A stretch of DNA of 13,547 nucleotides from a candidate division WOR-3 bacterium (lineage in GTDB: Bacteria; Hydrothermota; Hydrothermia; Hydrothermales; Hydrothermaceae), in the NCBI GenBank assembly GCA_039803745.1, contig JBDRZD010000029.1, positions 10,843 through 24,389 on the forward strand, in the 5' to 3' direction. Positions 9,001 through 12,000 of the stretch are shown here, in pieces (position 1 is the stretch's first letter; each line of letters begins with the position of its first letter). Position numbers: made by a program.

Positions 9001-12000
9001 TGCTTTTAAAAACTTGTGATTCACCACTTGATTTTGACATAGAACTTGCAAAAAAAACCGCAAGTGAAAACCCTGTATATTATCTTCAATATATGCATGC
9101 AAGATGCGTTAATGTTAGAAAGTTTGCAATGGAAAAAGGGATAGATTGTGAAAAATTTAATGAAAATTATTTAAAAGGTGAGGAAGAAAGAAAAATACTT
9201 GTAAATCTTTTTTATTTTAAAGATATTATTGAAAAAAGCGCGATTTTAAGGGCTCCCCATCTTTTACCTTATTTTTTATTAGAAGTTGCAGGAAGTTATC
9301 ACTTTTACTATCAATCAAAAAGAATAGTGGGTGAGGATAAGGAGGTTTCAAAAGCAAGACTCGCATTAAACAATGCATGTGAATATGTTATAAAAAATGG
9401 TTTAAAAATTATGGGTATAGATACACCTGAAAAAATGTAATGGAATCTGTTGTTGAATTTTTTGATGTTACAAAAATATATAGAGAAAAGTATTATGCAT
9501 TAAAAAACATAAATTTAAGTGTAAAAAAAGGAGAATTTATATTTATTGTTGGACCTTCAGGGGCAGGAAAAACAACACTATTAAAATTGATTTATATGGA
9601 AGAATTTCCCGAGGAAGGTGAAGTAAGGGTTTTTGGATTTTCAAATAAAGAAATAAAGAAAAAGGATATTGCCTTTTTAAGAAGAAAAATAGGAGTAATA
9701 TTTCAAGATTTTAGGCTCCTTACTGATAGAAATGCTTTAGAAAATGTTATCTTTGCTTTGGAGAGTATAGGTATTCCTTATAAAGAGGCAAGGGAGAAAT
9801 CGTTAAAAGTTTTAACTGATATAGGGCTTGTTTCAAAAGCAGACAATGAAATATTTGATCTCTCAGGTGGTGAACAGCAAAAAATATGTATTGCAAGGGC
9901 ACTTGTAAGGGAACCAATAATTTTGATTGCTGACGAACCAACTGGAAATATAGATCCGAAATCACAGGATGAGATAATAGATTTACTTGTAGATATCCAT
10001 GGAAAAGGGACAACAGTTATAATGGCAACACATAATTATGCACTGATGGAAAAAATACCTATTAAAAGGGTAATACACTTAGAAAGAGGTGAAATCAAAA
10101 AAATAGAATGATAATAAAACCTGAAAATTTCTTTTTAACAGCAGGAAAAGGTAAAGGGGAATATCCATTAATTGCCTTTGACAATGCTTTAAAAGATGCA
10201 AAGATATCAGATTATAACCTTTTAAAAGTATCAAGTATTTTACCAAATGGAGTAAAAGAAAAGAAAATTATTGATTTACCAAAAGGTTCAATAATATTTA
10301 TAGCCTATTCCTATTTAATTGCAGAAGAAGGATTAATAACAAGTGCCTGTTCTGTTGCAATTCCTCAAAGAGAAAACGATATTGGAGTTATAATGGAATT
10401 TTCAGGAAATGTATCAAAAAAAGAGGCAGAGGAAAAAGTAAAAGAGATGGCAGAAATTGCAATGAAAGAGAGAAATATTTTAATAAAAAAAATTCTTGTT
10501 AAATCAAAAAGTATCATTGCAAAAAAATATTCCTGTGTTATTTCTGGTTGCTGTTTGTGGTAATATTTTTTAAATAATTCTTCCATTCATTTTTATAAAT
10601 TTCTTTTCTTTTTTCATAAGGGATAAATTCAATCCCAAGGATTTCAAAAATCTCTTTTTCTTTTCTTGCAACAATTTCCCATTTATCCCTTTTATAAAGT
10701 CCATATTGATTCAATAAAAATCCCTTCCTCTTTGCAATACCCCGCAGCCATACATTAAATTTACCTGAACCTATTAAATAAAGGGAGAAACTTTCCCATG
10801 AATCCTTATATTCTTCTGGAAGTGAATATATTTCAATCCTTTCATAAAAATCAAATTTTTTCAAAATATTTTTTGCTCTTTCATAATCCTTTTCATTAAC
10901 AAGAATATCAACATCACCAATTGTTTCTTCTTTCCTTATATAAGAGCCATAAATTCCAAATTCAATATTCTCTTTTTTAAAAATCTCCTCAATTTTTTTA
11001 ACAATCTCCTCACATTCACTTAATGAAATTCTTTCCTTTATTTTTGCCAATTAGAAAATCTCACTCCATTTTTTTGCAAGTTCATCCCTTCTTGGTTTAT
11101 AAACAAGTTCATAAAAACTTCGCTGGGAGAGTAGAATATCTTTTTCATAGGATTTACATATTTCAACTGCTTCCTTAAATGCCTCCTCCCATTTGCCACC
11201 AAACCTTCTTTCAATCTGCTTTTCAAAATTCTCTGGTGTCTGAATTTCATCACCTATAACATAAAATTTTTTACCTTCAATTTCAACACAGTAAGCCATC
11301 TCATCACCTATATGTTCAATACCAAAGGTTTCTTTTATTTTTTCAACTTTCTCCTTTGGAACTTTAATTCTTTCAAATGCTACCTTCCTTGGTCCTTTTA
11401 CAAGTTTTGGCTTAAAACCCTTTTTTGCAGCAGCATAAAATATTGCTCTATTCAATCCAAAACTTTTAGCTTCAGGAAGACTTTTGCCTAAACAATATGC
11501 CCTTGCAGCCTGCAATGTTGCCATTACTTGAAATCTTCCTATTTTCATATTAAAATTATAAAATATTTTTTAAAAAATTTCTATCATCTTTGAAAATTCA
11601 GGAATTTTTTTTATAAAATAAAAATATGGAAAAACATAAAGTATTGTGGAAACCATCTAAAAATTTAATTGAAAAATCAAATATTAAAAAATTTATAAAT
11701 TTTTTAAATAAAAGATACAATTTAAATATAAAAGATTATTTTGATTTATATGATTTTTCAATAAAGGATATCCCATTTTTCTGGGAAAATTTCTGGGATT
11801 TTATTGAAATAAAATATAAAGAAAAATTCAAAGAAGTTGTTGATGATTTAAATAAATTCCCTGGTGCTTACTGGTTTAAAGGTGCAAAGTTAAATTATGC
11901 TGAGAATATGTTAAGATTTAGGGACAAAAAGATAGCAATAAAATATATAAGGGAGGATGGAATAAAAAAAGAGATAAGTTATAAAGAAATTTATGAAACT

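What a model noticed while it worked through the whole genome (the two positions that open the first line are those of the whole stretch)
10538..11050. A 170-residue stand-alone family-X DNA polymerase core (palm + thumb only) in thermophilic bacteria
g00966 encodes a 170-aa protein made only of the palm and thumb subdomains of a family-X (Pol beta-like) DNA polymerase, with the GS...DxD nucleotidyl-transferase motif invariant, although the genome also has a normal 571-aa PolX-PHP enzyme (g01519); it is preceded without a gap by an unannotated 165-aa gene (g00967). I read it as a cellular counterpart of the 174-aa minimal Pol X of African swine fever virus: a tiny gap-filling repair polymerase (or template-independent nucleotidyl transferase) of hot-spring and vent bacteria. 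New would be the smallest cellular DNA polymerase, thermostable and short enough for total chemical synthesis, hence of use for mirror-image and synthetic-biology wor [...]
Evidence so far: pfam.tsv: DNA_pol_B_palm res 11-65 (hmm 5-61 of 113, E 2e-8), DNA_pol_B_thumb res 90-148 (E 1e-18); no Swiss-Prot hit. Call 150: only 33 homologues at E<=1e-12 in 5.8 billion proteins, 149-170 aa for the complete ones, from WOR-3/Hydrothermia bins and Thermodesulfobacterium geofontis (79% identity; 'nucleotidyltransferase family protein', 'DNA polymerase (family 10)'). Call 154: 11 GTDB species genomes (Thermodesulfobacterium, Thermodesulfatator, Hydrothermia, one Woesearchaeota, one Caldilineaceae). Invariant G35 S36 R39 D46 D48 R71 K107 R121; E73 in >=90%. 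AF2 on 18 sequences pLDDT 92.2, pTM 0.84; Foldseek PDB: Pol lambda, Pol beta, T. thermophilus PolX, TMq 0.65-0.73, rmsd 2.4-5.7 A, 21-2 [...]
(Added by a program. Inside this text positions count along the whole contig: contig position 10,843 is position 1 of the stretch shown here. "Call 12" and the like, gene names such as g00115 and contig names such as C1 are that model's own, and its searches are not shown. The text may have been shortened before it was handed on; [...] marks where a part breaks off. The agent that wrote the report below was given it as the finding of a first reader that could run no searches.)

Follow-up and report, generated by a model that had tools for sequence, protein, structure and literature searches.

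The report
Minimal PolX repair polymerase gene
A hot-spring bacterium carries a real 170-residue family-X DNA polymerase gene with the smallest catalytic core seen in this family, and it sits beside the partner gene of an equally small DNA ligase, which suggests a miniature fill-and-seal DNA repair kit that nobody has yet tested.

Summary
Window 10538-11050 (-) encodes a 170-aa PolX with palm and thumb only. The model is confident and superposes on Thermus PolX and Pol beta at Z about 16. The genome also has a 571-aa PolX-PHP.

Three corrections:
- Stand-alone short PolXs are common. 37 of the 150 best cluster representatives have this architecture, and this scan noted such proteins before on other DNA.
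- What is special here is the palm. It is cut to the three-strand nucleotidyltransferase core, with 24 residues between DxD and the third carboxylate against a median of 48. D46, D48 and E73 are invariant in the family, and the equivalents of Pol beta Y271, N279 and R283 are invariant or nearly so.
- The upstream 165-aa gene is not a missing polymerase domain. It belongs to a highly conserved family of unknown fold that forms an operon with a ~190-aa ATP-dependent ligase lacking the OB domain.

The mini-PolX occurs almost only in genomes with that pair (20 of 21). In relatives it sits between the pair, or beside photolyase, Fpg/Nei or a repair radical-SAM gene.

Best reading (0.55): a gap-filling repair polymerase working with the ligase pair. 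Activity is untested. Glu at this position slows Pol beta 1000-fold. This is a new variant of a known kind.

The parts
10538..11050 (-). mini-PolX gene, 170 codons plus stop, TTG start
   Evidence: ORF; Pfam palm and thumb; AF2 pLDDT 92.8; VIA-align Z 16.2 to T. thermophilus PolX and 15.8 to Pol beta
10784..11050 (-). palm, residues 1-89, reduced to a1-b1-(turn)-b2-a3-b3-a4
   Evidence: DSSP of the model: H10-26, E31-34, E47-52, H53-63, E72-77, H79-93. The beta-hairpin present in the canonical PolX and in other short PolXs is missing.
10907..10948 (-). GS..R......DxD motif, residues 35-48 (G35, S36, R39, D46, D48)
   Evidence: Invariant in 24 of 24 family members. G 149, S 150, R 150, D 150 and D 147 of 150 across the PolX sequences examined.
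10832..10834 (-). codon of E73, the third catalytic carboxylate, in the strand R71-I72-E73-I74-Y75
   Evidence: Aligns with the Asp of QVDLR in the genome's own 571-aa PolX. Invariant in the family. The DDE triad occurs in 16 of 37 stand-alone short PolXs.
10604..10783 (-). thumb (nascent-base-pair subdomain), residues 90-149, with Y91, G94, F98, N99 and R103
   Evidence: Pfam thumb E 5.4e-18. N99 148 of 150 and R103 149 of 150.
10538..10603 (-). C-terminal basic/aromatic helix (residues 150-163, IYxxEWKxYLK), a low-confidence tail and the stop codon
   Evidence: Helix 150-159 is predicted with high pLDDT. The motif is conserved in the family. Similar Trp-containing tails occur in several other short PolXs.
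11051..11548 (-). 165-aa gene of unknown fold (P0002), the conserved partner of OB-less mini-ligases
   Evidence: No family hit. 1476 homologues. AF2 pLDDT 87, with no fold match: best Z 3.9 and best Foldseek E 0.2. The ligase gene lies directly upstream in 11 of 20 loci, and within 1 kb in 36 of 50 genomes that have both.
11060..11067 (-). GGAGTGAG, a Shine-Dalgarno-like stretch 9-13 nt before the TTG start, inside the end of P0002
   Evidence: read directly from the sequence
11555..11583 (-). promoter-like site (TAGAAA-17-TATAAT) before P0002
   Evidence: Consensus scan, 10 of 12 matches. 14 sites were found against 7.5 expected in this AT-rich stretch, so this is weak evidence.

Best explanation
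The gene encodes a catalytically competent, template-directed family-X DNA polymerase reduced to about 150 core residues. The palm is a three-strand minimal nucleotidyltransferase core that carries the two-metal site (D46, D48, E73) and the triphosphate grip (G35, S36, R39). The thumb is a normal PolX thumb that checks the nascent base pair (Y91, N99, R103). A short basic C-terminal helix follows. It has no 8-kDa dRP-lyase domain, no helix-hairpin-helix fingers and no PHP nuclease. It should therefore insert one or a few nucleotides into short gaps that other enzymes have already cleaned. The nick would then go to the ATP-dependent mini-ligase (contig C50 in this genome), whose conserved partner protein is co-transcribed with the polymerase in this window.

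Shown: the fold, conservation of the catalytic and substrate-contact residues, the palm deletion, the gene neighbourhoods and the co-occurrence. Inferred: activity, template dependence, gap substrate, and cooperation with the ligase pair.
For: (1) Fold. AF2 pLDDT 92.8. Z 16.2, rmsd 2.5 A over 156 residues to T. thermophilus PolX residues 149-327. Z 15.8, rmsd 2.4 A over 149 residues to closed ternary Pol beta residues 143-337.

(2) Active site. G35, S36, R39, D46, D48, R71 and E73 are invariant in 24 of 24 members. E73 aligns with the third catalytic Asp of the genome's own PolX. R71 sits where Pol beta has R254, which positions D256 (mapping, profile 70-149 to Pol beta 253-334; the role of R254 from a passage of PMC5499815).

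(3) Thumb. N99 and R103 are kept in 148 and 149 of 150 PolX sequences. Y91 is 90% or more conserved in the family. These correspond to Pol beta Y271, N279 and R283 (recalled numbering, consistent with the 3-residue insertion seen).

(4) The remaining secondary-structure order is exactly the minimal NTase core (the definition of that core is recalled from Kuchta et al. 2009, not read here).

(5) A second lineage, P0296 (159 aa, 40% identical, DDD triad), has the same short palm.

(6) Repair neighbours on the same strand in 7 of the 17 loci examined: Fpg/Nei-type glycosylase (G049), photolyase (G168, G169, G171, G172), mini-ligase (G173), and a radical SAM protein scoring just under the TIGR03916 cut-off (G104).

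(7) Nested distribution. 16 of the 17 mini-PolX genomes in the phylum, and 4 of 4 Thermodesulfobacteriota genomes, carry both the mini-ligase and P0002. Among the other 255 genomes of the phylum, 39 have the ligase. All 7 PolX-bearing families fall among the 16 of 43 ligase-bearing families (rough hypergeometric 3.6e-4; families are not independent).

(8) In genus g68 the polymerase gene lies between the ligase and P0002. The three are contiguous in G173 and within 6-7 kb in G168, G171 and G172.

(9) The gene is kept in 7 of 7 genomes of g18 and 5 of 6 of g68.
Against: - There is no activity or expression data.
- Human Pol beta D256E is about 1000-fold less active (passage of PMC5499815).
- In full-length prokaryotic PolXs, truncated palms go with degraded triads and loss of polymerase activity (PMC9226535, passages).
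- The deleted hairpin, and the absent 8-kDa and fingers domains, are the parts that hold DNA in Pol beta.
- The residues of the ASFV Pol X 5'-phosphate pocket (R125, T166, R168; PMC5330486) align with W101, E141 and I143 here. No known way of gripping a gap is therefore visible.
- The gene is absent from 3 of 3 other genomes of the same genus (completeness 75, 93 and 67%) and from the one other genome of the family.
- Two copies look broken: G108 has an internal TAA, and L009 is split after residue 111.
- In 10 of the 17 loci examined the neighbours have nothing to do with DNA.
- In this genome the ligase is on another contig.
Confidence: 0.55

Rival explanations
1. It is a nucleotidyltransferase with a different job from templated gap filling. 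It could tail 3' ends without a template, or use rNTPs, to prepare broken ends for the mini-ligase in an end-joining or RNA-repair role.
For: The mini-ligase's best NCBIfam match is the NHEJ ligase domain TIGR02779 (E 4e-19), and it also matches Pfam RNA_ligase. The polymerase has no 5'-phosphate-binding domain. Position 92 is Leu where PolXs usually have Phe. An earlier scan note (e1-5049104) says that in Caldisericota the same ligase core is fused to a primase-polymerase, as in LigD. Long forms of 374-460 aa with an N-terminal extension do exist.
Against: The residues that read the minor groove of a templated base pair (N99, R103) are as conserved as the catalytic ones. Y91 matches the Tyr of the dNTP-selective PolXs (recalled). 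No Ku was found in this 93% complete genome. The N-terminal extension of the long ligases has no Pfam or PDB sequence hit, so its primase-polymerase nature was not confirmed here.
Confidence: 0.2
2. It is a catalytically dead or nearly dead DNA-binding protein. It would be a PolX remnant kept as a nick or gap sensor or scaffold, as argued for noncanonical PolXs.
For: The palm is truncated by about 24 residues. Truncated palms in full-length PolXs accompany inactivity. Glu at the third site is very poor in Pol beta.
Against: All three acidic residues and the GS..R triphosphate motif are invariant, whereas the inactive PolXs have degraded triads and dNTP sites. DDE occurs in 16 of 37 stand-alone short PolXs and in only 4 of the other 113 sequences, which looks like an adapted variant rather than decay. 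Prostova et al. count Asp or Glu triads as canonical.
Confidence: 0.12
3. It is a drifting mobile gene of viral or plasmid origin with no stable host role, and its neighbourhoods are accidents of insertion.
For: The distribution is patchy: 17 of 272 genomes, absent from congeners. Thermodesulfobacteriota copies at 75-79% identity group with the window's clade inside the phylum's diversity (support 91/92). Short PolXs occur in phage records (7 records, partial matches) and in giant viruses. An earlier scan note (e1-5130115) reports one in a Mu-like prophage. Two copies are broken.
Against: No phage or mobile-element genes flank it in the window or in the 17 loci examined. There is no PHROG or PADLOC family hit of note. 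GC content is like the surroundings. It is retained across whole genera. Its presence is tied to the ligase pair.
Confidence: 0.08

Closest known systems
African swine fever virus repair DNA polymerase X (O174L, 174 aa; PDB 1JAJ, 5HRB and others)
   Same: It consists of palm plus C-terminal nascent-base-pair subdomain only, with no 8-kDa, fingers or nuclease domain. The size is similar. The family profile matches it at E 1.3e-9 in two stretches.
   Different: ASFV Pol X has a full palm. D51 to D100 leaves 48 residues between, against 24 here. Its triad is Asp49, Asp51 and Asp100, while here it is D, D, E. ASFV has H115 and L123 where this protein keeps the Pol beta-like Tyr and Asn. The ASFV 5'-phosphate pocket residues are not conserved here. 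This protein has an extra conserved C-terminal helix, comes from a cellular thermophile and is linked to a ligase module.
Canonical bacterial PolX-PHP (T. thermophilus PolX 3AU2/3AUO; B. subtilis YshC; the 571-aa copy in this genome)
   Same: It is the best sequence and structure match: E 1.6e-8, and Z 16.2 with rmsd 2.5 A. The GS..R..DxD spacing is the same, and the thumb motifs are the same.
   Different: This protein lacks residues 1-150 (8-kDa and HhH fingers) and the PHP domain. Its palm lacks the beta-hairpin. Glu replaces the third Asp.
PolX2 group of Timinskas et al. 2026 (PMC12926913)
   Same: These are bacterial PolXs without the 8-kDa and PHP domains but with a conserved polymerase active site, and they have not been studied experimentally (passages).
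   Different: [quoted passage not shown] Here there is only a helix of about 14 residues, and the fingers are absent. Membership could not be tested, because no PolX2 sequence was on hand and the X-family sheet of the supplement was cut off in storage.
Noncanonical (inactive) prokaryotic PolXs of Prostova et al. 2022 (PMC9226535)
   Same: They have deletions of up to 26 residues in the palm that remove a helix and two strands.
   Different: Those proteins have altered triads and degraded dNTP sites, and they keep the PHP exonuclease as their working part. Here the triad and the dNTP site are invariant and there is no PHP domain.
Polymerase-ligase repair combinations: bacterial LigD (POL+PE+LIG, with Ku) and Phaeocystis globosa virus PolX-ligase fusion (PMC5537341, abstract only)
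   Same: A small polymerase is genetically coupled to a ligase for short-patch repair.
   Different: Here the parts are separate genes. The ligase lacks an OB domain and comes with a partner of unknown fold. No Ku was found. The polymerase is PolX-type, not AEP-type.

Membership tests
Family X DNA polymerase (Pol beta-like) | Palm and thumb domains recognised above the curated thresholds | tested here: met
   PF14792 31.8 bits and PF14791 65.1 bits, both against a cut-off of 25
Family X DNA polymerase (Pol beta-like) | hGS..R......DxD motif plus a third acidic residue on a following strand | tested here: met
   G35, S36, R39, D46, D48 and E73 are invariant in 24 of 24. E73 aligns with the third Asp of the genome's own PolX. 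The third residue is Glu, not Asp.
Family X DNA polymerase (Pol beta-like) | Thumb residues that contact the nascent base pair (equivalents of Pol beta Y271, N279, R283) | tested here: met
   Y91 is 90% or more conserved; N99 and R103 are invariant in the family and present in 148 and 149 of 150 sequences. Pol beta numbering is recalled.
Family X DNA polymerase (Pol beta-like) | Three-dimensional likeness to solved PolX catalytic cores | tested here: met
   Z 16.2, rmsd 2.5 A over 156 residues (3auo). Z 15.8, rmsd 2.4 A over 149 residues (Pol beta). Foldseek E 2e-10.
Family X DNA polymerase (Pol beta-like) | DNA-dependent DNA polymerase activity | not testable with these tools
   This needs a biochemical assay.
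ASFV Pol X-type minimal PolX | Only palm plus C-terminal subdomain, about 150-205 aa, with GS within 50 residues of the N-terminus | tested here: met
   GS is at residues 35-36 and the length is 170 aa. 37 of 150 sequences share this architecture.
ASFV Pol X-type minimal PolX | Complete five-stranded palm, with about 48 residues between DxD and the third carboxylate | tested here: not met
   24 residues here, against a median of 48 in 150 sequences. The model shows strands 31-34, 47-52 and 72-77 only.
ASFV Pol X-type minimal PolX | 5'-phosphate pocket (R125, T166, R168, L174) | tested here: not met
   These align with W101, E141 and I143 in the printed profile alignment. The pocket residues are taken from PMC5330486. 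Identity is low, so this rests on the alignment only.
PolX2 (Timinskas et al. 2026) | [quoted passage not shown] | tested here: inconclusive
   The first three features are met. There is only one short C-terminal helix. No PolX2 sequence was available to compare, and the supplement sheet was not held.
Noncanonical inactive PolX (Prostova et al. 2022) | [quoted passage not shown] | tested here: not met
   The triad is D, D, E and the GS..R motif is invariant.

The most novel reading that the evidence does not exclude
The 165-aa protein of unknown fold would be a shared DNA-holding subunit. It would stand in both for the missing OB domain of the ~190-aa ligase and for the missing 8-kDa and fingers domains of the ~165-aa polymerase. 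Three proteins totalling about 530 residues would then form a complete thermostable gap-fill-and-seal machine, a bacterial counterpart of Pol beta-XRCC1-Lig3 or of LigD. In some lineages the polymerase slot would be filled by PolX, and in others by a different polymerase fused to the ligase.
Probability: 0.25. Interest if true: 0.85.

Novelty: new variant of a known kind. Interest (0 to 1): 0.6.

Why it matters
If the protein is active, it shows how far a templated DNA polymerase can be reduced: a three-strand nucleotidyltransferase core plus a 60-residue base-pair-checking module, in a thermophile. That matters for questions about minimal polymerases, and for practical uses that need very short, heat-stable enzymes, such as chemical synthesis or mirror-image systems.

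The wider point is the genetic link. The polymerase follows a widespread, uncharacterised two-gene unit. That unit is an ATP-dependent ligase without an OB domain plus a very conserved partner with no recognisable fold. It occurs in 50 of 272 genomes of this phylum and also in Thermodesulfobacteriota. By the source names, homologues of the partner also occur in Caldisericota and KSB1. This points to a DNA repair route in thermophiles that I did not find described in the literature searched and that can be reconstituted from three small proteins.

Tried and rejected
- Split-PolX idea. I asked whether the upstream gene encodes the missing 8-kDa and fingers domains, given the same frame, a single TAA and a sum of 335 aa. 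I rejected this. There is no HhH or PolX hit. The fold matches nothing. The family is far wider than the mini-PolX: 1476 hits against 34. In G172 and G173 the gene order is reversed.
- Complex prediction of mini-ligase with P0002: no verdict (score 0.06 against a mark of 0.32). This is evidence for nothing.
The TAA junction was therefore not checked against independent assemblies.
- Defence or toxin-antitoxin reading (MNT-like nucleotidyltransferase): only two PADLOC matches at E 1e-3 over about 30 residues, and none for P0002 or the ligase. No HEPN neighbour in the window.
- ASFV Pol X among structural hits: it is not in the top 50 of pdb or pdb_via, which are filled by hundreds of Pol beta and Pol lambda entries. 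In BFVD an ASFV O174L entry of 135 residues ranks 44th at E 0.39. The sequence profile does find ASFV Pol X.
- Protein Atlas for P0002: only its own cluster and sub-threshold leads.
- Fpg/Nei and Ku in this genome: not found with the queries used, in a genome that is 93% complete.
- Whether Timinskas et al. classified the T. geofontis 162-aa protein: that genome is in their data set, but the X-family table is not in the stored part of the supplement.
- Literature searches for a described minimal bacterial PolX or an OB-less ligase with a partner found none. These are full-text searches of open-access papers only.
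Full report
**The gene.** Window 10538-11050 (minus strand) is an open frame of 170 codons. Its TTG start follows directly on the TAA of the upstream 165-codon frame (11051-11548), and a GGAGTGAG stretch lies 9-13 nt before it. Homologues begin MAKIKERI at the same place, so the start is credible. Pfam finds the PolX palm (residues 11-65, E 1.8e-7) and thumb (90-148, E 5.4e-18), both above the curated cut-offs. NCBIfam matches only the PolX equivalog, far below its cut-off. The window is otherwise ordinary housekeeping DNA: argS, ftsE, arginine decarboxylase, acetoacetate-CoA ligase, RNase H and others. GC content is even at 25-30%. The same genome (1.67 Mb, 100 contigs, 93% complete) has a 571-aa PolX-PHP on another contig.

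**Structure.** AF2 on 24 family sequences gives pLDDT 92.8 and pTM 0.84. Foldseek ranks closed ternary complexes of Pol lambda, Pol beta and T. thermophilus PolX first (E about 1e-10, TMq 0.65-0.73). VIA-align gives Z 16.2, rmsd 2.5 A over 156 residues to T. thermophilus PolX 149-327, and Z 15.8, rmsd 2.4 A over 149 residues to Pol beta 143-337. The family profile also finds ASFV Pol X by sequence (E 1.3e-9).

**What is unusual: the palm.** The model's elements are helix 10-26, strand 31-34, strand 47-52, helix 53-63, strand 72-77 and helix 79-93. I aligned the protein with the genome's own canonical PolX and with other short PolXs. The family lacks the two-strand hairpin that normally lies between the helix after DxD and the strand with the third carboxylate.
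- In 150 sequences (this protein plus 149 representatives), the number of residues between DxD and the third carboxylate has a median of 48. Here it is 24.
- Apart from fragments of this family, only one other full-length protein, P0296 (159 aa, 40% identical, DDD triad), is as short.
- ASFV Pol X has 48 (Asp51 to Asp100; PMC5330486).
- What is left is the alpha-beta-alpha-beta-alpha-beta-alpha order. I recall this as the minimal core of the nucleotidyltransferase fold (Kuchta et al. 2009, not read here).

**Active site.**
- G35, S36, R39, D46, D48, R71 and E73 are invariant in 24 of 24 members.
- E73 lines up with the Asp of the QVDLR strand of the canonical enzyme and with the third acidic residue of the other short PolXs. 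The profile-to-Pol beta mapping (70-149 to 253-334) puts R71 and E73 on R254 and D256.
- Glu at this position is not an oddity of this family. Among the 37 stand-alone short PolXs in the set, the triad is DDE in 16, DDD in 16 and something else in 5. Only 4 of the other 113 sequences are DDE.
- In the thumb, N99 and R103 are kept in 148 and 149 of 150 sequences, and Y91 is kept in 90% or more of the family. With the 3-residue insertion at 80-82, these correspond to Pol beta Y271, N279 and R283 (recalled numbering), the residues that check the nascent base pair. ASFV Pol X has His and Leu at the first two.
- The pattern is that of an enzyme under selection for templated nucleotide insertion, not of a decaying domain.

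**Cautions on activity.**
- Human Pol beta D256E loses about three orders of magnitude of activity (PMC5499815, passage).
- In full-length prokaryotic PolXs, palm deletions of up to 26 residues go together with altered triads and loss of polymerase activity (PMC9226535, passages). The same paper counts Asp or Glu triads as canonical.
- The protein has none of the known DNA-gripping parts. There is no 8-kDa domain and no HhH fingers. The ASFV 5'-phosphate pocket residues align with W101, E141 and I143.
- A conserved basic and aromatic C-terminal helix (IYxxEWKxYLK, residues 150-163) is predicted with high confidence. It might help to hold DNA, but that is a guess.

The exhaustive profile search of 1.84 billion cluster representatives returns 8922 PolX-family proteins at E <= 1e-3. 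Among the best 150, 37 are stand-alone palm-plus-thumb proteins of at most 205 aa that start with Met and have GS within 50 residues of the N-terminus. Ten of them were looked up; they come from unnamed metagenome contigs, two with the label 'DNA polymerase (family 10)'. Seven phage records hold partial matches. BFVD holds giant-virus PolXs, including a 174-aa Harvfovirus protein. Earlier notes of this scan report a 157-aa DPANN PolX (e1-1164876) and a 177-aa PolX in a Mu-like prophage (e1-5130115). A 2026 survey describes PHP-less 'PolX2' proteins (PMC12926913, passages). The architecture is therefore known, and 'smallest cellular polymerase' cannot be claimed for this protein. What I did not find described is the minimal palm with an intact triad.

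**Distribution.** In 272 genomes of the window's phylum the mini-PolX (over 200 bits) is in 17. These comprise G000, one genome of the same order (84% identical), 7 of 7 of genus g18, 5 of 6 of g68, and three single genomes. It is absent from 3 of 3 other genomes of the same genus and from the one other genome of the family. Four Thermodesulfobacteriota genomes carry it at 75-82% identity. In a maximum-likelihood tree their clade (98/94) is sister to the window plus G049/P0004 (93/90). Joint support is 91/92, to the exclusion of g18 and g68. This indicates transfer between phyla; the tree is unrooted, so the direction is open. Two copies look broken (G108, internal TAA; L009).

**Neighbourhoods.** I examined 17 loci. 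Same-strand, abutting neighbours are:
- a photolyase in G168, G169, G171 and G172;
- a 192-aa ATP-dependent ligase in G173;
- an Fpg/Nei-type glycosylase (H2TH plus N-terminal domain) 12 nt downstream in G049;
- a radical SAM protein scoring 333 bits against the 343.5-bit cut-off of TIGR03916 ('putative DNA modification/repair radical SAM protein') in G104.

The other ten loci show unrelated genes (Fe-alcohol dehydrogenase, secreted proteins with T9SS tails, and others). The Fpg/Nei link fits mechanistically: beta,delta-elimination leaves a gap without a sugar remnant, so a polymerase without dRP lyase suffices. This rests on established BER chemistry and is an inference.

**The upstream gene.** P0002 has no family, PDB-sequence, PHROG or PADLOC hit. 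Its model is confident (pLDDT 87, pTM 0.83), yet it matches nothing. The best Z is 3.9 against 48,161 chains, and the best Foldseek E is 0.2. It is very conserved, with 57% mean column identity and 54 invariant columns in 21 sequences whose source names, where given, include WOR-3, Caldisericota, KSB1 and Firmicutes. The search listed 1476 relatives. It is not a PolX domain.

Its usual neighbour is a ~190-aa protein with only the adenylation domain of ATP-dependent DNA ligases. That protein keeps motifs I, III, IIIa, IV and V, ends at motif V and has no OB domain.
- It lies directly upstream on the same strand in 11 of 20 loci, from five genera.
- In the phylum the ligase is in 55 and P0002 in 65 of 272 genomes, and 50 genomes have both.
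- In 36 of those 50 the two genes lie within 1 kb of each other on the same strand.
I saw that note only.
- Long forms of the ligase (374-460 aa) exist, one with a locus tag adjacent to a P0002 homologue.

**Link between polymerase and ligase pair.**
- 16 of the 17 mini-PolX genomes have both the ligase and P0002. G169, the exception, shows neither.
- The four Thermodesulfobacteriota genomes have the adjacent pair too.
- Among the 255 genomes without the mini-PolX, 39 have the ligase.
- All 7 PolX-bearing families are among the 16 of 43 ligase-bearing families (rough hypergeometric 3.6e-4). Kin, gene transfer and shared habitat all inflate this figure.
- In genus g68 the polymerase lies between the two: ligase-PolX-P0002 contiguous in G173, and ligase ... 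photolyase-PolX ... P0002 within 6-7 kb in G168, G171 and G172.
- In the window, P0002 and the polymerase form the operon, and the ligase (48% identical to that of G173) sits on contig C50 between unrelated genes.

**Conclusion.** The most economical reading is that the mini-PolX is an optional polymerase add-on to a ligase-plus-partner repair unit. I put 0.55 on an active, templated gap-filling polymerase working with that unit. I put 0.20 on a different nucleotidyltransferase role in end or RNA repair, 0.12 on an inactive DNA-binding remnant and 0.08 on a drifting mobile gene.

**What remains open.**
- The complex prediction for ligase plus P0002 gave no verdict.
- The open-access full-text searches found no described bacterial PolX with this minimal palm and no OB-less ligase with a partner.
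- The X-family table of PMC12926913, whose data set includes T. geofontis OPF15, was not readable. It may already list the orthologue.

Noticed in passing
window 11051-11548 (-); relatives in L028-L046: The 165-aa protein P0002 belongs to a very conserved family of no known family or fold (1476 relatives, 54 invariant columns). In 36 of the 50 genomes that have both, it lies within 1 kb, on the same strand, of a ~190-aa ATP-dependent ligase that ends at motif V and has no OB domain. This looks like an uncharacterised two-subunit ligase.
   Followed up: partly
G000 contig C50 (L013 1498-2073, minus strand): The genome's own 191-aa OB-less ligase overlaps its flanking genes, an NADH dehydrogenase subunit H-like gene and a LuxE-like acyl-protein synthetase. 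It is unlinked from P0002, unlike in most genomes.
   Followed up: partly
L030 62-1995 and L031 (genomes G262, G263): In these two genomes the P0002 homologue overlaps the end of an anaerobic ribonucleotide reductase (NrdD) gene instead of following the ligase.
   Followed up: no
proteins P0307-P0316: Long forms (374-460 aa) of the mini-ligase carry an N-terminal extension of 200-280 residues with no Pfam or PDB sequence match. One (P0314) has a locus tag adjacent to a P0002 homologue (P0079).
   Followed up: partly
L025 2125-2616 and L026 2120-2605: In two g18 genomes a 161-163-aa ORF without a Pfam hit follows the mini-PolX on the same strand. It did not match P0002 by tblastn (E cut-off 1e-5).
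   Followed up: no
window 4644-6164 (-): A 506-aa ORF with no Pfam hit lies in the most AT-rich part of the window (GC about 0.20-0.25).
   Followed up: no
L033 1128-1505 (G084) and the same position in L032, L035, L037: A 125-aa HEPN-domain gene lies convergent to, and slightly overlapping, the end of the P0002 homologue in g18 genomes.
   Followed up: no
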